This document shows, in pieces, positions 24,601-31,652 of a stretch of 64,000 bases of DNA; the first letter of the stretch is position 1; each line of letters opens with the position of its first letter. The position numbers were made by a program, and so were the translations under genes. The notes under the pieces were generated by a model. The model worked only from the letters and a program-made list of their open reading frames with translations. It was not told the DNA's origin and did no database searches. Source of the stretch: a virus; the IMG/VR virus record IMGVR_UViG_3300030450_002194, positions 7,006 through 71,005 of that record; one strand, written 5' to 3'.

Positions 24601-24925
24601 GGTACATATAGAATAATGGACGCTGTTATATGTTAGAACATTTTACGCCATTAATTCTGATATGTATAAGTAGGCCATTGGTGGAATACGTGCTTAAGAG
24701 GCCATTGATATTAATTGCCACCGACAATACTATCCAATCGAGGGACTATATAAGAGATGCCGCACCCCTCGACACCCTTCTCTAATAATAGAATTATCTC
24801 AAACCATATGGTATCAACAACTTTGTCCAGTTGAAACCTGATTTTGAGGAGTCCGACAGGAAAGGGCGACTAATCCCCTTCCTGCCAGACAAGAAATGCT
24901 GCTAACTAAGGCGTGAAAGAAGGGA

Positions 24926-25435
24926 TTACTCCTCTTCCTCCACATAGTCGTATTCTGCACAAGCAGACAGTCCATCTAGTGAACCATCCCACTCACCGGC
25001 CTTGTACAGTTCCCTTGCGGTCTGCTTTGCCTTCTTAGCAAGTGTATTAGCGTAATCGTTTGCATCAACGAAAACTGGTGGGCCTGCACTCTTTCCATGC
25101 TTTCTTAGCAATGGCTGAGAATACTGTGCGGTACTCTCAAAGAAGGCATATGCTGCCTCCCTTATTGCTTCTGCTGCTGAATCCACTACAACAGATGCTG
25201 CTGCGGGTAATAGCCCTTGATTACCCCTGCGCCAAACAACCTTACCTGAAGGGAAATCCTTCAGCATTGCCTTTATTGATAGAGCCAATGCAGCCCTATT
25301 GTCTACGTTATTATCACCAGTTTCAATTAACATTGTTGCTAGTGACCTTACATCTCCGGGTATTGCGCTATCCACATCACCCTCGATGCATGAATTAACC
25401 TTCATCTTTACTGATTCCCAATTTACTTCATCCAT
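24926..25435 (-). CDS. HGKS-family protein of unknown function (array cassette)
   Basis: start MDEVNW after GTGA; similar to 27274-27813 and 21304-21543. Confidence 0.8.
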   Translation of the reverse strand: MDEVNWESVKMKVNSCIEGDVDSAIPGDVRSLATMLIETGDNNVDNRAALALSIKAMLKDFPSGKVVWRRGNQGLLPAAASVVVDSAAEAIREAAYAFFESTAQYSQPLLRKHGKSAGPPVFVDANDYANTLAKKAKQTARELYKAGEWDGSLDGLSACAEYDYVEEEE

Positions 25436-25496
25436 AATATTCACTTCCTTATTTCTTTCTTGCCCCGTTAGCGGCACTTCTCTCATATTCATAGAG

Positions 25497-25503
25497 TATA
25501 TAA
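25497..25503 (-). promoter_or_regulatory. TATA box of minus-strand cassette
   Basis: minus strand CCATATGG-TTTCGCTTTGT...CTC-TTATATA, same layout as the three plus-strand promoters. Confidence 0.55.
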
Positions 25504-26252
25504 GAGGTTTCAAACAAAGCGAAACCATATGGTAATGAGGTTTTTTCGGGGATACAAGGAAACAAGGCTAGAAAAACACGCGAATTTTCCTTAGTCTAAA
25601 ATCTTAGTGCGTTTTCTGCACCTGTATTTCCAGTGCATTTGCTATTTAACATAGCCTTATTTTACGCTCATTACCATATGGTTATATTAAAGGGATATAG
25701 TCATGGTATCACAGTAAAATGGGCTGGTGCAGACTAGCGTAAATCGTTAGGCTGCACAATTTGCATTAAGCAAAGCCCTTGGGATACCATGTCTAGATAA
25801 CGTAATAATAATCCCAACAGCCAAGTGAGGCACTATCATAAAGGACACTGGACTAAAGACGAGTTACTTACACAAGTCCAGTGCTACCAGTAATTGACGT
25901 TAAACCATGATTTCATCATTGGCTATACATAGACATACAAGCCTGGGCTTAATGCCCTTAACGGCATATATGTCTGTCTATTCCATCAATTACCGGTTGC
26001 ACAGGCCACGCGTAACTAACTCCTCTTTACTCGCTGATGTCCTTAACCGTACCATATGGGTGTAACCCTTAAGGGAACGGAAATTATTTTTTGTGCTTCG
26101 GACATTGTTCTACACTTCCTTTGCTTCTACTGTAACTTAGTTAGATGCTTAATGCATCTCTCGCAGGAAGAGATAGAACCTGCCTCCGCAAAAAAATAAG
26201 TTCCTTCTTCGACCCATATGGTGGCATCAAGTAGGAGGTGATTGATTGAGAA

Positions 26253-26447
26253 TCATTCAAGCCAATTGTCGTCCATAGGAGGGAAGGCTCTTAGAATCGC
26301 AGAGTCTTTCTCTGGGCCGTCAGGCAAAGATTCAAGAAGCCTAATCTTCTTATGGTCTACATATGTTATGTATACGATGAACATCATCATTACTCCTAAC
26401 AATACAATCACTGGCATTACTTCATTTAACCCTAATTCTGTGGTCAT
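26253..26447 (-). CDS. 64 aa single-pass membrane protein (cassette)
   Basis: ATG 16 nt after CCATATGG; VMPVIVLLGVMMMFIVYITYV. Confidence 0.6.
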   Translation of the reverse strand: MTTELGLNEVMPVIVLLGVMMMFIVYITYVDHKKIRLLESLPDGPEKDSAILRAFPPMDDNWLE

Positions 26448-26662
26448 GTCTGCTGACGCATGACCATATGGTAGAGGGTCAATTAAGTGCCGGAGGGACT
26501 TAATGTAAGCCATGCGGTCCTCGACCAGATAAAAATGGGGCACATTGTAAGATTGTATTATACATCACAAACTACACACCTTCGGTGCCGTTTGCTCAAA
26601 ATAATATCAATCATTTTGGCTTAATGCCAAACCATATGGAATTAGAAAAGATACAAGATGGT

Positions 26663-28230: not shown

Positions 28231-28435
28231 TCAGGTATTGATTACAAAGTTCAATACCATATGATAGTAACGTAGTGGTGTTTGTAAACTAAGTCGCGGT
28301 AACTTGTTAGCGTGGCTACTGTGAGTGACGCATTAAGCGTCAGTTAAACGTAGCGAGTATAGGGTAGTTTGTAAACAACTATCTGATTGCTCACGTATTC
28401 ACAATCATATGGTGGTAAAGATAGAAGAATCTATG

Positions 28436-28567
28436 TCAGTCGGTGAAACCGAGTGTCTTGCGCATATGGAGATACTGTTCTTCATCAGACAGTATCTCGT
28501 ACAAGATATTACTCAGTGTTTCAGCGCATTCAAATAGTTCTTCCTTGGTAACCTTATTTCCGGTCAC
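28436..28567 (-). CDS. 43 aa acidic peptide (cassette)
   Basis: GTG-ACC 17 nt after CCATATGG with the same TCATGCGTTAGC leader; MTGNKVTKEELFECAETLSNILYEILSDEEQYLHMRKTLGFTD. Confidence 0.45.
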   Translation of the reverse strand: MTGNKVTKEELFECAETLSNILYEILSDEEQYLHMRKTLGFTD

Positions 28568-28912
28568 TTATTGCTAACGCATGACCATATGGTGACGAGT
28601 GGGAAAACAGTAGTTACATTAAGTAAAAAGCATAGCGTCAGTTTTCGTGCGCTGTGACCTAATGAGGCAAGTTAAGCGAGCGGCTACATCACATGTACGC
28701 CTACGTACTTATACTACCATATGGTTATTAATCACGCTTGCGAGAATTGCAAACGTCAGGTGTTAATTTGCCAAGTATGCGCATTAAGCGCAGAACTAAG
28801 TGTCAGGTAAATTAACTTGCAATCCGAAGCAAGGGTTATAGTGTTTAGCGGTAATCACCTTAAGGTTCTTAACGCTTCGCTAAACCATATGGTAGTGAAA
28901 CTTTGTGTTAGC

Positions 28913-28946
28913 ACTACCTTAAGTAGTCTATTAAATATAGAGATAC
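28913..28946 (+). promoter_or_regulatory. archaeal-type promoter, copy 3
   Basis: ACTACC-TTAAGTA-GTCTATTAAATATAGAGATAC. Confidence 0.7.
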
Positions 28947-29313
28947 GTCCTTGACGGAGGACACCGGAGTGGCTGAATATCACCGTTGTTAGGGTGAAAG
29001 GCACACATCTAGGGGTCATAGTGGCCCATCGAGCCGACTAAAGAAAACGGTAGGCAGTACAAACGCCCTTAGCGGGGTTAGATGTGGTATGTGCGGGTAA
29101 AGCAATATAACACTGTTATTGAAACTGACACCCATTGCACATTGAGAGAAACTAGAAATAGGCTTCTCTTCTCCACCCTTGAGCCAGTTTTGCACATTTC
29201 TGGCACTTAACCAAAAAATGTCGCATCTCAATAGTGAGTAAGACAACGACTTGTAACAATATAGTTAGCGCAAGTGGAAATCGTTGCATCATTATTGAGA
29301 TGAGGTCTTTTTT
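28947..29313 (+). ncRNA. putative structured non-coding RNA (~365 nt)
   Basis: follows promoter copy 3, no sense ORF in track, many helices, final hairpin plus T6. Confidence 0.6.
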
Positions 29314-31652
29314 ACAAAGTTATTACCATATGGGTTTAAGTTCTACAGATATAACTTAAGATAGCAATTAGGCGGACGAAGTCGCGCCGAAAGCAAAAGT
29401 AATCGTAGGATGCATTAAGCATCAGCGTAGCGTAGTAATTAGTTTTGTTGGAGGGAACGTAATTCCTATCTTAAGTTCTACACAGAACAATTACCCTCAA
29501 TTTGGGGTCATGTTCTAATTACTGAGAACATGTTACCATATGGATATGACTAACGATTAGTGTCCAGGAAAGCGTTAATCACATTAAGTGATAGCAGGAG
29601 TCTTAGCCTTATGTTTAGGGATGATATAAACTACGTTTTGATAACTACGTTTATTACTACCATATGGTTGCTGAAAGAGATAACGGCGAAATTCATCAAA
29701 ACAAATGAATTGAGCCGTAGTCTCTGTAACAGCAGTGGAGTACCTACGAAACGTACCCCAATTCTATGCTGTCTTATGTTATACACTCCTTCTGGTCTTA
29801 TATGGAACCACACTATATACCTTCAGTCGTTATGCTTTGCATGGTGCATAATGCACCTGTTACCACTCCTTCTAATTATAGGTGGAACCTATGACCATAT
29901 GGATGAGAAAGGTTTCAGTCGGGATACGCTGAAGCATGGCGAGATGTTATTGCATTAAGCAATAGCGATACGCGTGTATGGAGGCATGTCTGGTGCGTAT
30001 CTTGCTGGGCCAATCTTGCATCCTGATAGGATGTTTTGGTTAATCACTTTTCCTTACTTTACGTGATTAACGTCACACCATATGGTCGGTGAGGTTGAGG
30101 TGTCGAAGACGGTGGTGCTTGCACCTTGGCATCATCGAAGACATACGAAGTAATAATGTCTGAGATATGCCAAATAGTCGTAGGCCCCTCATAATGCACC
30201 CAGACCTTATGAGAGGAGTTGATTTATACGTGTAGTCTTTAACTTTGTTAAAGCCAACTTTAACTTAATGTTTTAAATAAATAAACTTAACCTCATATGG
30301 TAGTGCAAGAGCGATACAGCAAACAACAACTGTATCAAACTTGATAGGAGATATGAAAACACACTCTTGCAACTATCCTCATCGGCTCACCACTTAGCGG
30401 TAGCATATGGGTGTAGCCCTGACAGGGTGCATAATAACTTGCAAATCTCCGCTGGAACTTCGTAACATTGTTTAACAAGAGGCTTAATGCCTCTATACTT
30501 TACGAAGATTCCAGTCTCCGTTTGCAAGTAATTATCATTTCATGCCCATATGGAAAGGTGGGGTATAAAGTCTTCAGCGCAGCATGTAGGCATTAAGCAG
30601 GGTGCTAAGCACCCAATGCTGCGATTTATACCTTACAATCCCCAAGCATTAGGGTTGTATTGTCTTTGTGTAGAGTATACGCTCTTACGAACTAGTGTTG
30701 TCTTATCTCCTGGAGACAACACTCAGTTCTCCACTATCGTAGCATATACTCTACTGCTGAGTATACCAACCATATGGATAGTAAGGCTTACGGTAGGCTT
30801 ACCGTAGCGAGTCGATAGTGTACTTACATTAAGTAAGAGCAGAGGTAATAAACGTAGTTTATGCCAGGATGCGTTTGCTATCGGGCGAGACGGTGGTAAG
30901 ACTAGTGGGGCCATTAAATCCTGATGGGGTGTTTCACACCATATGGTATGAGTTACGGTTTACCAAGGTTTACAGGGTTAAGTAAGAGTACGCTACAGTG
31001 GGGAACAAGTATAGATGCATTAAGCATCGAACAAAGTGGAATGCAGTTCCCGGATATGTAGCGTAGTCTTAGTTAAGACTGTAAACTGGTGTGGCCGATA
31101 ATACGCAATACCAGAACATAGGGTAGTTATCACTACGTTCATTGCTTAAAGGAAGGAGTTAAACTGTAGAACTCCGATGCTCTGGCTTAACGCCTGTCCC
31201 GCTGAATCTAGCGGGAACCGCATGTTTATCTTCATTCTACAGAGCCTCCTCCTTTAACCGTCACTCCGTTTCACTACCATATGGCTTTGCCTTCGATTTT
31301 TTTTCTTATTGTTTAATCATTCTTTATCCAATGTTGGCATAAGATTTTGTTCTTCCAAAGCCTAATTTGATATACTACCCGTAGGGGTGTCCATATAGAG
31401 AAGCGTCAGGTGTGCTAACTCTAGTAATTAAACATAAATAAATTCGCGGTGCTGTGATATGAACAAAGGATACAATGAAGTATTAACCTTCGTTTAACCA
31501 CAGCCCATTGATAGGTAAATAAAAAGCATAGGCTTATCCTGGGAATGCACAAAGTTTAGGTTAAAAAAAAACGCAAGTGCCACATAAATTACAGCCCAAA
31601 TTTCAAAAAATAAAGGTCTAAAAAATTCCACCACACAAAAGAGGTAAAAAGC

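What the first reader, a model, noticed from the sequence alone, without database searches (positions are those of the whole stretch)
24804..31284. 6.5 kb cassette array delimited by CCATATGG palindromes: candidate undescribed system
Seen: 23 exact CCATATGG plus several one-base variants, mostly 120-250 nt apart. Fewer than one copy is expected per 64 kb at roughly 35% GC, and I saw none elsewhere. The DNA between sites differs in sequence, but many units fold back on themselves, often including the boundaries: CCATATGGTAATGAG(25525)...CTCATTACCATATGG(25681) and CCATATGGGT(26052)...ACCCATATGG(26221). One unit shows a compensatory pair of variants, CCATATGAT(28257)...ATCATATGG(28412). Cargo includes pure hairpins, mini-ORFs, promoter-gene modules and an RNA. 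Inference: either an integron- or shufflon-like array rearranged at a palindromic core, or a multi-unit structured RNA locus processed at these sites. It is not CRISPR-like, and no recombinase is visible in this window.
Basis: partly seen in the sequence, partly recalled or inferred. Interest (0 to 1): 0.95.

Follow-up and report, generated by a model that had tools for sequence, protein, structure and literature searches.

The report
Palindrome-joined shuffling cassette array, archaeal virus
An ocean virus of archaea carries about 25 small DNA modules (a few genes, one RNA gene, many gene-less units) joined by one 8-10 letter palindrome, and related viruses hold the same modules in scrambled order and orientation, broken exactly at that palindrome.

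Summary
There are 23 exact CCATATGG in 24804-31284 (about 1 expected) and none elsewhere in the 71-kb record.

The virus is a marine archaeal tailed virus. Calling it a magrovirus is my recall; earlier scan notes use the same name.

Segmenting 17 arrays (this one plus 16 related) shows whole units inverted, moved, gained and lost. Against L128, 16 units are shared, 4 are inverted and 2 of 9 adjacencies are kept. Homology stops inside the 8-bp core, and variant core bases travel with their unit. DNA contigs from other marine runs show exact unit deletions and a different order.

- **RNA-processing reading:** not supported.
- **Fold-back including boundaries:** not general. End pairing beyond the core equals the control.
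- **Enzyme:** unknown. No tyrosine or serine recombinase was found in 5 genomes, 2 of them complete. A conserved single-domain LAGLIDADG-fold protein is an untested candidate.

The closest known systems are the PeSL cassettes of T4-type phages and the TATA-plus-inverted-repeat motif of halovirus HGTV-1. The gene-less units carry an invariant RTTAA pentaloop hairpin and remain unexplained. This scan had already reported the same array type in at least 8 other genomes.

The parts
24804..31284 (.). Whole array. It has 23 exact CCATATGG and 4 one-mismatch boundary variants, giving about 25 units of 132-729 bases. It lies at the switch between the leftward (replication) and rightward (structural) gene arms.
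24804..25532 (-). Unit 1 (family 0). A gene cassette holding a 200-aa protein (24926-25528, - strand). Its promoter is at the right end, read on the - strand as core-N6-CTTTGTT-N-CCTCTTATATAC. It is the first unit in 14 of 16 arrays that hold it.
   Evidence: RNA contig 25008-25475
25525..25681 (.). Unit 2 (family 2). Gene-less and found in 9 arrays, always next to unit 1. It is the only unit with a 7-base inverted extension of the core.
25674..26059 (.). Unit 3. Gene-less, with pentaloop hairpins at 25764 (ATTAA on +) and 25948 (TTAAT on +).
26052..26221 (.). Unit 4. Gene-less. It has a CCCTTAAGGG hairpin next to the left core and a pentaloop hairpin at 26148.
26214..26471 (-). Unit 5. A mini-ORF cassette on the - strand encoding a hydrophobic small protein. 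The fixed leader TCATGCGTCAGC follows the right core.
26464..26639 (.). Unit 6. Gene-less, with a pentaloop hairpin at 26620, 3 bases from the right core.
26632..26876 (-). Unit 7 (family 5). A mini-ORF cassette encoding 62 aa (26663-26851, - strand) with the same leader. It is inverted in L124, L126, L128 and L131.
26869..27015 (.). Unit 8 (family 16). Gene-less, with a pentaloop at 26977. It is a full-length inverted paralogue of 28585-28724 (72% identity).
27008..27180 (.). Unit 9. Gene-less, with a long imperfect inverted repeat whose apex is the pentaloop at 27086.
27173..27872 (+). Unit 10 (family 1). A gene cassette with promoter core-N6-ACTTTGT-N7-TACCTTAAATA (27201-27211). The transcript starts near 27235, the ORF is 27274-27813 (179 aa), and the unit ends CCC-TTCG-GGG hairpin, ACAAAGT-N6-core. 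It is inverted end to end in L007.
27865..28264 (+). Unit 11 (family 4). A gene cassette with the same promoter type and a 69-aa ORF ending at 28230. It is inverted in L007, L123, L127 and L128.
28257..28412 (.). Unit 12 (family 6). Gene-less, with variant cores CCATATGA and TCATATGG that travel with the unit, and a pentaloop at 28331. It is missing exactly in a contig of run X4.
28405..28592 (-). Unit 13. A mini-ORF cassette encoding 43 aa (28436-28567, - strand) with the same leader.
28585..28724 (.). Unit 14 (family 16, inverted copy). Gene-less, with a pentaloop at 28617. It is missing exactly in a contig of run X2.
28717..28892 (.). Unit 15. Gene-less, with a pentaloop at 28782.
28885..29333 (+). 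Unit 16 (family 3). An RNA-gene cassette with promoter TACCTTAAGTA. It has no ORF. Positions 28947-29180 match the whole Rfam manA model below threshold. It is inverted in L007, L122, L123 and L127.
29326..30085 (.). Units 17-20 (29326-29543, 29536-29667, 29660-29902, 29895-30085). All gene-less. Pentaloops lie at 29413, 29582 and 29953, with the variant GCATAATGC at 29846.
30078..31284 (.). Units 21-25 (30078-30300, 30293-30553, 30546-30777, 30770-30946, 30939-31284). All gene-less. Pentaloops lie at 30483, 30591, 30827, 31018 and 31186. The last unit (family 35) is also last in L128.
24329..24803 (.). Conserved left flank with no long ORF and AT-rich inverted repeats. It is 82% identical in L007 and 77% in L008, and its orientation is fixed.
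31285..31651 (.). Conserved right flank, 75% identical in L007, with fixed orientation.
8231..8629 (-). Candidate only. A 132-aa single-domain LAGLIDADG-fold protein, conserved in all 5 other array-bearing genomes tested.
9099..10622 (-). ATP-dependent DNA ligase. It matters only under the cut-and-rejoin reading.
23648..24208 (-). A 186-aa protein beside the array with weak helix-turn-helix matches below threshold. It is a candidate DNA binder and was not tested.

Best explanation
This is the hyperplastic accessory region of a marine archaeal tailed virus. It is built from self-contained modules that join at the palindrome ACCATATGGT.

Shown: modules have been inverted in place, moved, gained and lost as whole units. 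The crossovers lie inside the 8-bp core, and each module carries the inner bases of its two flanking cores.

Shown for gene modules: each has its own archaeal promoter at a fixed distance from the core (core-N5-6-CTTTG-N7-TATA), and the 179-aa gene is transcribed from about 24 bases after its TATA box.

Inferred: because the core is a perfect palindrome, two cores can align either way. One and the same exchange then gives inversion, or excision and re-insertion, with no directionality. This fits the mix of single-unit inversions, indels and transpositions. The core is probably also a docking site for a dimeric protein, acting as a boundary or regulatory element in the wider family, where it sits in a 28-bp palindrome CAAAG-TACAA-CCATATGG-TTGTA-CTTTG.

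Not shown: which enzyme does the exchange. It could be a dedicated nuclease or recombinase, or general recombination on the short shared sequence as proposed for PeSLs. I put the dedicated-enzyme version at about 0.4 within this explanation.
For: - **Scrambled order:** 17 arrays were segmented at the cores and units clustered at 70% or more length coverage. The window reads 0+ 2+ 26+ 27+ 28+. 5+ 16+. 1+ 4+ 6+ 29+ 16- 30+ 3+ 31+ 17+ 32+. 33+. 34+. 35+. L128 reads 0+ 2+ 26+ 32+ 33+ 5- 27+ 16- 9+ 12+.. 31-. 3+ 34+ 1+ 17- 28+ 30+. 4- 35+. That gives 16 shared single-copy units, 4 inverted, and 2 of 9 adjacencies kept.
- **Full-length inversions against L007:** 27173-27872, 27865-28264 and 28885-29333.
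- **Precise breakpoints:** at 60 of 106 unit ends compared, the 30 bases outside the core are unrelated (mean identity 0.50). The 30 bases inside remain homologous (mean 0.82; 59 of 60 at 0.6 or above).
- **Core bases travel with the unit:** family 6 has CCATATGA...TCATATGG with three different left neighbours. Families 36 and 33 behave likewise.
- **Near-identical arrays differ by single-unit events:** L124 and L126 are 98.9% identical with two single-unit indels. L135 and L136 are 96.3% identical with one insertion and one in-place inversion.
- **DNA contigs from other marine runs:** exact loss of 28257-28412 (X4) and of 28585-28724 (X2), and a join 28405 to 26870 in X2 and X3 with 8 shared bases.
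- **Family-wide signal:** the extended palindrome hits 108 stretches in IMG/VR. Those loci hold 603 cores in 937 kb, 90% as ACCATATGGT, with median spacing 516. There is one cluster per complete genome.
- **Deep conservation:** the core is kept where the unit-1 protein is only 25-27% identical.
- **Promoter:** an RNA contig with an adapter starts at 27235, 24 bases after TACCTTAAATA. The manA-like match starts at 28947, 22 bases after TACCTTAAGTA.
Against: - No enzyme is identified. PF00589 and PF00239 are absent from 5 of 5 genomes, 2 of them 100% complete.
- Events are seen on an evolutionary scale (two at 98.9% identity), not as the rapid switching of a shufflon. Metagenome contigs cannot separate co-existing strains from switching within one lineage.
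- No circular excised unit was seen; contigs cannot show one.
- The fixed spacing between core and promoter fits a purely regulatory role, with recombination as a by-product.
- The arrays are metagenome assemblies. The same arrangements recur in separate assemblies (L124/L126; L007/L122/L123), and a 10-base repeat is shorter than the usual assembly word (that size is from my own knowledge). I therefore judge misassembly unlikely, but I did not test it with raw reads.
- The gene-less units, which are most of this array, have no assigned function.
Confidence: 0.72

Rival explanations
1. PeSL-type reading. The palindrome is first of all a transcription signal: an operator, or a two-way boundary or terminator next to each promoter. 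Shuffling is then a by-product of the virus's general recombination between these repeated signals, with no dedicated enzyme.
For: - The core sits at a fixed distance from CTTTG and the TATA box in gene cassettes here and in complete relatives.
- Promoter-side similarity between different gene cassettes runs to 40-63 bases at 77-90% identity.
- PeSLs in T4-type phages do just this (PMC2839356, abstract read). A TATA-plus-inverted-repeat motif with the same proposed role is reported for halovirus HGTV-1 (PMC3950731, passage read).
- No recombinase was found.
Against: - Most units here are gene-less and lack the promoter module: 31 of 34 promoter-bearing units have no pentaloop, and the small units show no common promoter. 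Yet they keep the core and move just the same.
- Between unrelated neighbours only 8-10 bases are shared, which is very short for homologous exchange, above all for inversions.
- The core is invariant across viruses whose proteins are 25-38% identical.
Confidence: 0.3
2. Gene-less units are miniature transposable elements. They insert into the palindrome and duplicate it as a target-site duplication.
For: - Units are present or absent with one restored core at the empty site (X4 and X2 joints).
- Many units have internal inverted repeats.
Against: - A target-site duplication would give two identical direct copies of a variant core. Observed variants are complementary pairs (CCATATGA...TCATATGG in families 6, 36 and, in L124/L126, 3), and the variant base always lies on the unit's side.
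- Units share no terminal sequence beyond the core.
- Unit families are unrelated in sequence. I excluded 126 small-unit families by similarity to the wider loci: 0 had a tblastx hit and 1 a blastn hit.
- Gene cassettes move the same way.
- I did not search for transposase families other than PF00589 and PF00239.
Confidence: 0.07
3. A long structured transcript, or many small RNAs, cut at CCAUAUGG.
For: - Units fold better than background with the cores removed: mean z -2.8 and -3.05 against -0.71.
- One unit is a real promoter-driven structured RNA.
- The apical stem of unit 28257-28412 keeps pairing through changes on both sides in 3 of 5 pairs.
Against: - Folding is equal on both strands.
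- Hairpins lie 47:44 in the two orientations, and their stems have 6 G:T against 5 A:C in 531 positions, so there is no wobble signature.
- Each core is shared by two units and cannot close both.
- End pairing is at control level.
- RNA contigs of run X18 cover only the two protein genes. This is weak, because small RNAs are lost from such libraries.
Confidence: 0.05
4. A true integron or shufflon, run by a tyrosine or serine recombinase encoded in the missing quarter of this genome.
For: - The record is 74% complete.
- The architecture looks superficially like cassettes plus sites.
Against: - Two relatives rated 100% complete that carry the same arrays also lack PF00589 and PF00239. The controls ring in 14 of 14 and 12 of 14 genomes.
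- Cassettes have their own promoters and lie in both orientations.
- There is no single gene with alternative ends.
Confidence: 0.04

Closest known systems
PeSL (promoter-early stem-loop) mobile regulatory cassettes in hyperplastic regions of T4-type phages (Arbiol et al. 2010, PMC2839356, abstract and outline read; Comeau et al. 2014, PMC4122927, search listing only)
   Same: - Small non-essential genes sit in one variable region.
- Each gene is flanked by a conserved composite signal containing a promoter and an inverted repeat.
- Close relatives differ by insertion, deletion and replacement at these signals.
   Different: - The promoters are archaeal TATA type, not sigma-70 type.
- The shared signal shrinks to a perfect 8-10 base palindrome present once between neighbours.
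- In-place inversion is common.
- Most modules in this subclade are gene-less.
- Mini-circles were not looked for with suitable data.
Conserved TATA-box-plus-inverted-repeat motif before ORFs of halovirus HGTV-1 (Sencilo et al. 2013, known to me only through the passage in PMC3950731)
   Same: - An archaeal tailed virus.
- A motif before many small ORFs.
- Proposed to regulate transcription and to shuffle genes.
   Different: - The sequence differs: CCATATGG occurs only 2 times in the first 50 kb of HGTV-1.
- As far as the passage I read goes, no comparative proof of shuffling and no gene-less modules are reported.
- I could not read the primary paper.
Shufflons (R64 type, Rci recombinase); recalled, no paper read
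   Same: - Several DNA segments between repeated short sites.
- Segments are inverted singly or in groups.
   Different: - No Rci-type tyrosine recombinase.
- The sites are palindromic.
- Units are also gained, lost and moved.
- Units are independent modules, not alternative ends of one gene.
Integron gene cassettes with attC sites; recalled, no paper read
   Same: - Cassette logic.
- Sites defined partly by structure.
- ORF-less cassettes exist.
- Pentaloop hairpins with covarying stems recall recognition by structure.
   Different: - No IntI.
- No single entry site with a common promoter.
- Cassettes carry their own promoters and lie either way round.
- The hairpin is absent from 82 of 190 small units and 56 of 88 large units.
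Single-motif homodimeric LAGLIDADG homing endonucleases (I-TnaI 5gkk, I-Vdi141I 3e54), for the candidate protein only
   Same: - The fold matches: TM 0.83 and 0.80, E about 1e-7 and 1e-6.
- The profile matches I-PnoMI at E 7e-15.
- Such enzymes bind palindromic sites as dimers (family knowledge).
   Different: - It is free-standing and conserved as a core gene, not in an intron or intein.
- The helix-1 end reads S-I-A-K-P-E rather than the usual acidic motif, and the profile alignments start only after that helix. Catalytic competence is therefore open.
- Nothing links it to this site.
- An earlier scan note ties a homologue to a different 25-bp site.

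Membership tests
PeSL-type mobile regulatory cassettes | Cluster in a hyperplastic region between conserved gene blocks | tested here: met
   There is one cluster at the strand-switch point and one cluster per complete relative. The flanks are conserved and fixed in orientation.
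PeSL-type mobile regulatory cassettes | The signal holds a working promoter | tested here: met
   The motif is core-N6-ACTTTGT-N7-TACCTTAAATA. An RNA contig with an adapter starts at 27235 and the manA-like match starts at 28947. The promoter is of archaeal type, so the sigma-70 part of the definition is not met.
PeSL-type mobile regulatory cassettes | The signal holds a stem-loop that terminates transcription | not testable with these tools
   Inverted repeats CAAAG-N5-core-N5-CTTTG and GC hairpins lie at gene ends. Contigs cannot show RNA 3' ends.
PeSL-type mobile regulatory cassettes | Relatives differ by exchange at the signals | tested here: met
PeSL-type mobile regulatory cassettes | Excised mini-circles | not tested
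   Only Logan contigs were available. Deletion joints were seen, but no circle junction.
Integron | IntI tyrosine recombinase next to the array | tested here: not met
   PF00589 is absent from 5 of 5 genomes. The control rings in 14 of 14.
Integron | Promoter-less cassettes in one orientation behind a common promoter | tested here: not met
   Cassettes have their own promoters and lie in both orientations.
Integron | One structured attC site per cassette | tested here: inconclusive
   A pentaloop hairpin is present in 108 of 190 small units and 32 of 88 large units.
Shufflon | Rci-type tyrosine recombinase | tested here: not met
Shufflon | Segments are alternative 3' ends of one gene; inversion only | tested here: not met
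   The modules are independent, and indels and transpositions are seen.
Serine-recombinase invertible element | Resolvase/invertase gene | tested here: not met
   PF00239 is absent from 5 of 5 genomes. The control rings in 12 of 14.
LAGLIDADG homing endonuclease (132-aa protein) | LAGLIDADG fold | tested here: met
   - The AF2 model has pLDDT 93.
- Foldseek matches I-TnaI at TM 0.83.
- The profile matches I-PnoMI at E 7e-15.
- The Pfam match itself is below cut-off (16.7 against 22.5 bits).
LAGLIDADG homing endonuclease (132-aa protein) | Acidic metal-binding residue at the end of the first helix | tested here: inconclusive
   The alignments begin at positions 17-19, after that helix. The sequence there is S-I-A-K-P-E, with K16 and E18 nearly invariant.
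LAGLIDADG homing endonuclease (132-aa protein) | Cuts a defined palindromic target | not testable with these tools
   This needs a binding or cleavage assay.
manA RNA (RF01745), unit 28885-29333 | Score at or above Rfam's gathering score | tested here: not met
   The score is 41.9 bits against 55.2, with E 2.3e-8, over model positions 1-192 of 192.

The most novel reading that the evidence does not exclude
A dedicated cut-and-rejoin shuffling system that needs no tyrosine or serine recombinase.

A dimeric viral protein recognises ACCATATGGT and cuts it symmetrically. The conserved LAGLIDADG-fold protein is the only candidate I found. Every cut end then carries the same self-complementary overhang. 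The viral ATP-dependent ligase, or host repair, rejoins modules in any order and either orientation.

The gene-less modules with the invariant RTTAA pentaloop would be DNA-level elements recognised by structure, on extruded hairpins or single strands, and would form a second, so far unknown functional class of cargo.
Probability: 0.13. Interest if true: 0.9.

Novelty: new variant of a known kind. Interest (0 to 1): 0.62.

Why it matters
These viruses are reported to be abundant in surface oceans and to infect uncultured marine group II archaea (abstracts of PMC5434244 and PMC10160649, search listing).

The array shows, with base-level breakpoints, how such a virus keeps a plug-in region. Genes, an RNA gene and gene-less elements are swapped and flipped there without disturbing the rest of the genome.

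If a specific enzyme acts on the 10-base palindrome, it would be a new and very compact DNA-shuffling system. Its defined site could be tested in vitro although the host cannot be grown.

The pentaloop units are a large class of conserved, mobile, non-coding elements with no known counterpart. I found no description of them: my searches turned up no paper on them, and word look-ups in two magrovirus papers found none of palindrome, hairpin, intergenic or non-coding, nor promoter or hypervariable in the one paper each was asked of.

Tried and rejected
- **blastn of the array against 50,697 phage records:** no match.
- **Rfam at gathering level:** only the tRNA. At E up to 1, only the sub-threshold manA match and one chance snoRNA row.
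- **Common promoter in the gene-less units:**
  - AT-rich windows after the core occur in 20-24% of units in one orientation against 6-11% in the other, which is too weak.
  - Promoter-like words have no consistent place.
  - Strict promoter-bearing units mostly lack the hairpin (31 of 34).
- **Gene-less units as decayed genes:** 0 of 126 small-unit families have a tblastx hit (E below 1e-4) in the wider family loci.
- **Fold of the 179-aa cassette protein:** pLDDT 84 and pTM 0.53, with no PDB match at E 0.001 or below. Pfam gave nothing for this or the other cassette proteins. It is a weak paralogue of the 200-aa protein (24% identity, E 0.005).
- **The 'compensatory' variant pair as proof of end pairing:** three families carry complementary double variants. 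Several others carry a variant at one end only, and I roughly expect about one double variant by chance. I do not count this as evidence of pairing.
- **RNA contigs of X18** cover no gene-less unit. Small RNAs are not expected in such contigs, so this says nothing.
- **Not run:** Complex prediction, the search of protein representatives and the protein atlas.
- **Supplements:** the supplements of the magrovirus and PeSL papers were not opened. They may hold motif lists that bear on novelty.

Full report
**Observation.** CCATATGG occurs 23 times in the window, all between 24804 and 31284. Dinucleotide shuffles give 0.98 on average and never more than 4. The whole 71,005-base virus record holds no further copy. 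Four one-mismatch variants sit at places where a boundary is expected. The array lies where GC skew and gene direction switch and has few long ORFs.

**What the genome is.** The left arm encodes a family B DNA polymerase, ribonucleotide reductase and an ATP-dependent ligase. The right arm encodes a portal protein.
- The portal's only relatives among 50,697 phage records are haloarchaeal tailed viruses (28-31% identity) and a Methanomassiliicoccales virus.
- A clamp-loader small subunit and, below threshold, a TFIIB zinc ribbon are present.
- Promoters are of the TATA type (below).
- The DNA is held by marine metagenome runs.

I therefore treat it as a marine archaeal tailed virus. The name magrovirus is my recall and that of earlier scan notes; I did not test it against named magrovirus genomes.

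**Anatomy of gene units.** Units 27173-27872, 27865-28264 and 28885-29333 begin CCATATGG-N6-ACTTTGT-N7-TACCTTAA(A/G)TA. The first two end ACAAAGT-N6-CCATATGG; the third ends ACAAAGT-N5-CCATATGG.
- In run X18 (metatranscriptome) a contig carrying sequencing adapter starts at 27235, 24 bases after the TATA box, and runs to 27779. A second RNA contig lies in the 200-aa gene.
- Unit 28885-29333 has no ORF. From 28947 it matches the full Rfam manA model at 41.9 bits (E 2.3e-8), below the gathering score of 55.2.
- Three further units carry mini-ORFs on the minus strand behind a fixed leader, TCATGCG(T/C)(T/C)AGC, that follows the core directly. I found no consistent promoter for them.

**The wider family.**
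- The pattern CAAAG-N5-6-CCATATGG-N5-7-CTTTG hits 108 stretches in IMG/VR, many of them in contigs of 85-97 kb.
- Those loci hold 603 cores in 937 kb. About 90% are ACCATATGGT, the consensus is TACAACCATATGGTTGTA, and the median spacing is 516 bases. These loci were chosen by the pattern, so the CTTTG frequency in them is biased.
- Two relatives rated complete have one cluster each, with 7 and 8 sites in 3-4 kb. Their units read core, CTTTG, TATA-like box, gene, small GC hairpin, CAAAG, core.
- The core is kept in viruses whose unit-1 protein is 25-27% identical.

**Rearrangement.**
- A DNA pattern found two arrays of the same subclade. A metagenome scan with the 200-aa protein gave 24 loci, 16 of them at 65-100% identity.
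- I segmented 17 arrays at exact cores plus the two commonest variants and clustered units at 70% or more length coverage. L130 (one core) was dropped, and L134 and L138-L145 were not included.
- Order and orientation are scrambled while the end units stay put. Window against L128 gives 16 shared single-copy units, 4 inverted, 2 of 9 adjacencies kept, and 87% identity.
- Against L007, three units are inverted from core to core.
- At 60 of 106 compared unit ends the 30 bases outside the core are unrelated (identity 0.50). The 30 inside stay homologous (0.82; 59 of 60 at 0.6 or above).
- Variant core bases lie on the unit's side and move with it. Family 6 has CCATATGA...TCATATGG with three different left neighbours. 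This places the exchange inside the 8 bases and speaks against a target-site duplication.
- Near-identical arrays differ by single-unit events. L124/L126 are 98.9% identical with two indels. L135/L136 are 96.3% identical with one insertion and one in-place inversion. L007/L123 are 94.6% identical with one unit moved and one extra.
- DNA contigs of three other marine runs show exact loss of 28257-28412 (X4) and of 28585-28724 (X2). X2 and X3 show a join of 28405 to 26870 with 8 shared bases. One further skip, 30963 to 31094 in X2, is not at a core.

**What is not supported.**
- End-to-end fold-back is an effect of the palindrome. Just inside the cores, complementarity equals that of unrelated ends (run 0.89 against 0.86), and only 1 of 56 units reaches a run of 4 or more.
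- With the cores removed, units still fold better than background, but equally on both strands.
- Hairpin stems lack a wobble signature.
- An RNA processed at the cores is therefore unlikely.

**The pentaloop hairpins.**
- The motif R-C-RTTAA-G-Y occurs 175 times in 77.6 kb of arrays against 20 times in 148 kb of flanks. It is nearly absent (1 case) from the 108 wider loci.
- The 91 distinct copies have stems of mostly 5 pairs that differ freely between copies. Orientation is 47:44.
- In unit 28257-28412, three of the five apical pairs changed on both sides between this virus and the L007 group. That is one divergence, not several independent events.
- New here: the hairpin has a polarity within its unit. 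Read as RTTAA, 112 of 114 copies in units under 260 bases lie in the first half. They are 0-100 bases from one core and usually 70 or more from the other.
- 108 of 190 small units and 32 of 88 large units carry the motif, so it is not needed for mobility.
- I found no promoter, no Rfam family and no protein relic for these units. Their function is open.
- My best guess is a hairpin recognised by structure at the DNA level or on either strand. I put that below even odds.

**Enzyme.**
- No tyrosine or serine recombinase is present in 5 of 5 genomes, with positive controls.
- A 132-aa protein (8231-8629, minus strand) is conserved, with 106 relatives.
- It folds with pLDDT 93 as a single LAGLIDADG domain. 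The top matches are I-TnaI and the archaeal I-Vdi141I, and its profile matches I-PnoMI at E 7e-15.
- It is present in 5 of 5 other array-bearing genomes. That is expected of any core gene and proves nothing.
- Such single-domain proteins act as dimers on palindromic sites (family knowledge), which makes it a candidate.
- The usual acidic residue at the end of helix 1 could not be aligned, and the local sequence is S-I-A-K-P-E.
- An earlier scan note links a homologue to another site. I could not find that site here.

**Comparison with the known.**
- PeSLs of T4-type phages are promoter plus stem-loop cassettes that mediate modular shuffling and form mini-circles (PMC2839356, abstract read).
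- A review passage reports a TATA-plus-inverted-repeat motif before ORFs of halovirus HGTV-1, with the same proposed role (PMC3950731). The motif is not this one, since CCATATGG occurs twice in the first 50 kb of HGTV-1.
- Two magrovirus papers contain none of the words palindrome, hairpin, intergenic or non-coding; 'promoter' was looked for only in the first and 'hypervariable' only in the second. A four-term search found nothing relevant.

I rate this a new variant of a known kind.

**Earlier findings of this scan.** The same array type was already reported and followed up in at least 8 other genomes, with the same conclusions. Those notes are not independent evidence, and I reached the points above from my own calls before reading them. 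This report adds:
- the control that removes the fold-back claim;
- the travel of half-sites with their units;
- the read-level joints for this genome;
- the polarity and the Watson-Crick purity of the pentaloop hairpins;
- the statement that the LAGLIDADG-fold protein is a candidate only.

Noticed in passing
window 28947-29180 (+): A promoter-driven RNA without an ORF matches the full Rfam manA model (RF01745) at 41.9 bits, E 2.3e-8, below the gathering score of 55.2. The unit is found in 8 arrays, and a look-alike stretch is visible by eye in L024:576-894.
   Followed up: partly
window 8231-8629 (-): A conserved free-standing 132-aa protein with a single LAGLIDADG domain (pLDDT 93; I-TnaI TM 0.83). 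The usual acidic motif at the end of helix 1 is replaced by S-I-A-K-P-E.
   Followed up: partly
window 24926-25528 (-) and 27274-27813 (+): The two main cassette proteins are weak paralogues (24% identity) sharing an invariant H-G-K-S-G motif and an acidic tail. The second has no fold match in the PDB (only it was modelled), and Pfam gave nothing for either. The second is covered by an RNA contig of word depth 52.
   Followed up: partly
I saw only these two.
   Followed up: no
window 13852-14766 (-): A 304-aa protein with an N-terminal TFIIB-type zinc ribbon (24 bits, cut-off 29). It may be a virus-encoded transcription initiation factor.
   Followed up: no
window 24329-24803: A non-coding left flank of the array with AT-rich inverted repeats, 77-82% identical in L007 and L008. 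It is better conserved than most array units and may be an origin or control region.
   Followed up: no
window 23011-23097 (-): tRNA-Leu (UAA). Its anticodon loop CUUAAGA resembles the hairpin loop read on the other strand (C-UUAAU-G) at 5 of 7 places. This is probably chance.
   Followed up: no
L024:94-2535: Another clade has 14 cores in 2.6 kb with gene-less units of 125-372 bases but without the RTTAA pentaloop. Dense gene-less arrays are therefore not limited to the pentaloop subclade.
   Followed up: partly
window 6373-6714 (-): A pyrimidine-dimer DNA glycosylase (PF03013, E 7e-13). This fits a virus of sunlit surface water.
   Followed up: no
window 30963-31094: A contig of run X2 skips 130 bases inside unit 30939-31284 with no core and no shared bases at the joint. 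Not every indel in the array is at a core.
   Followed up: no
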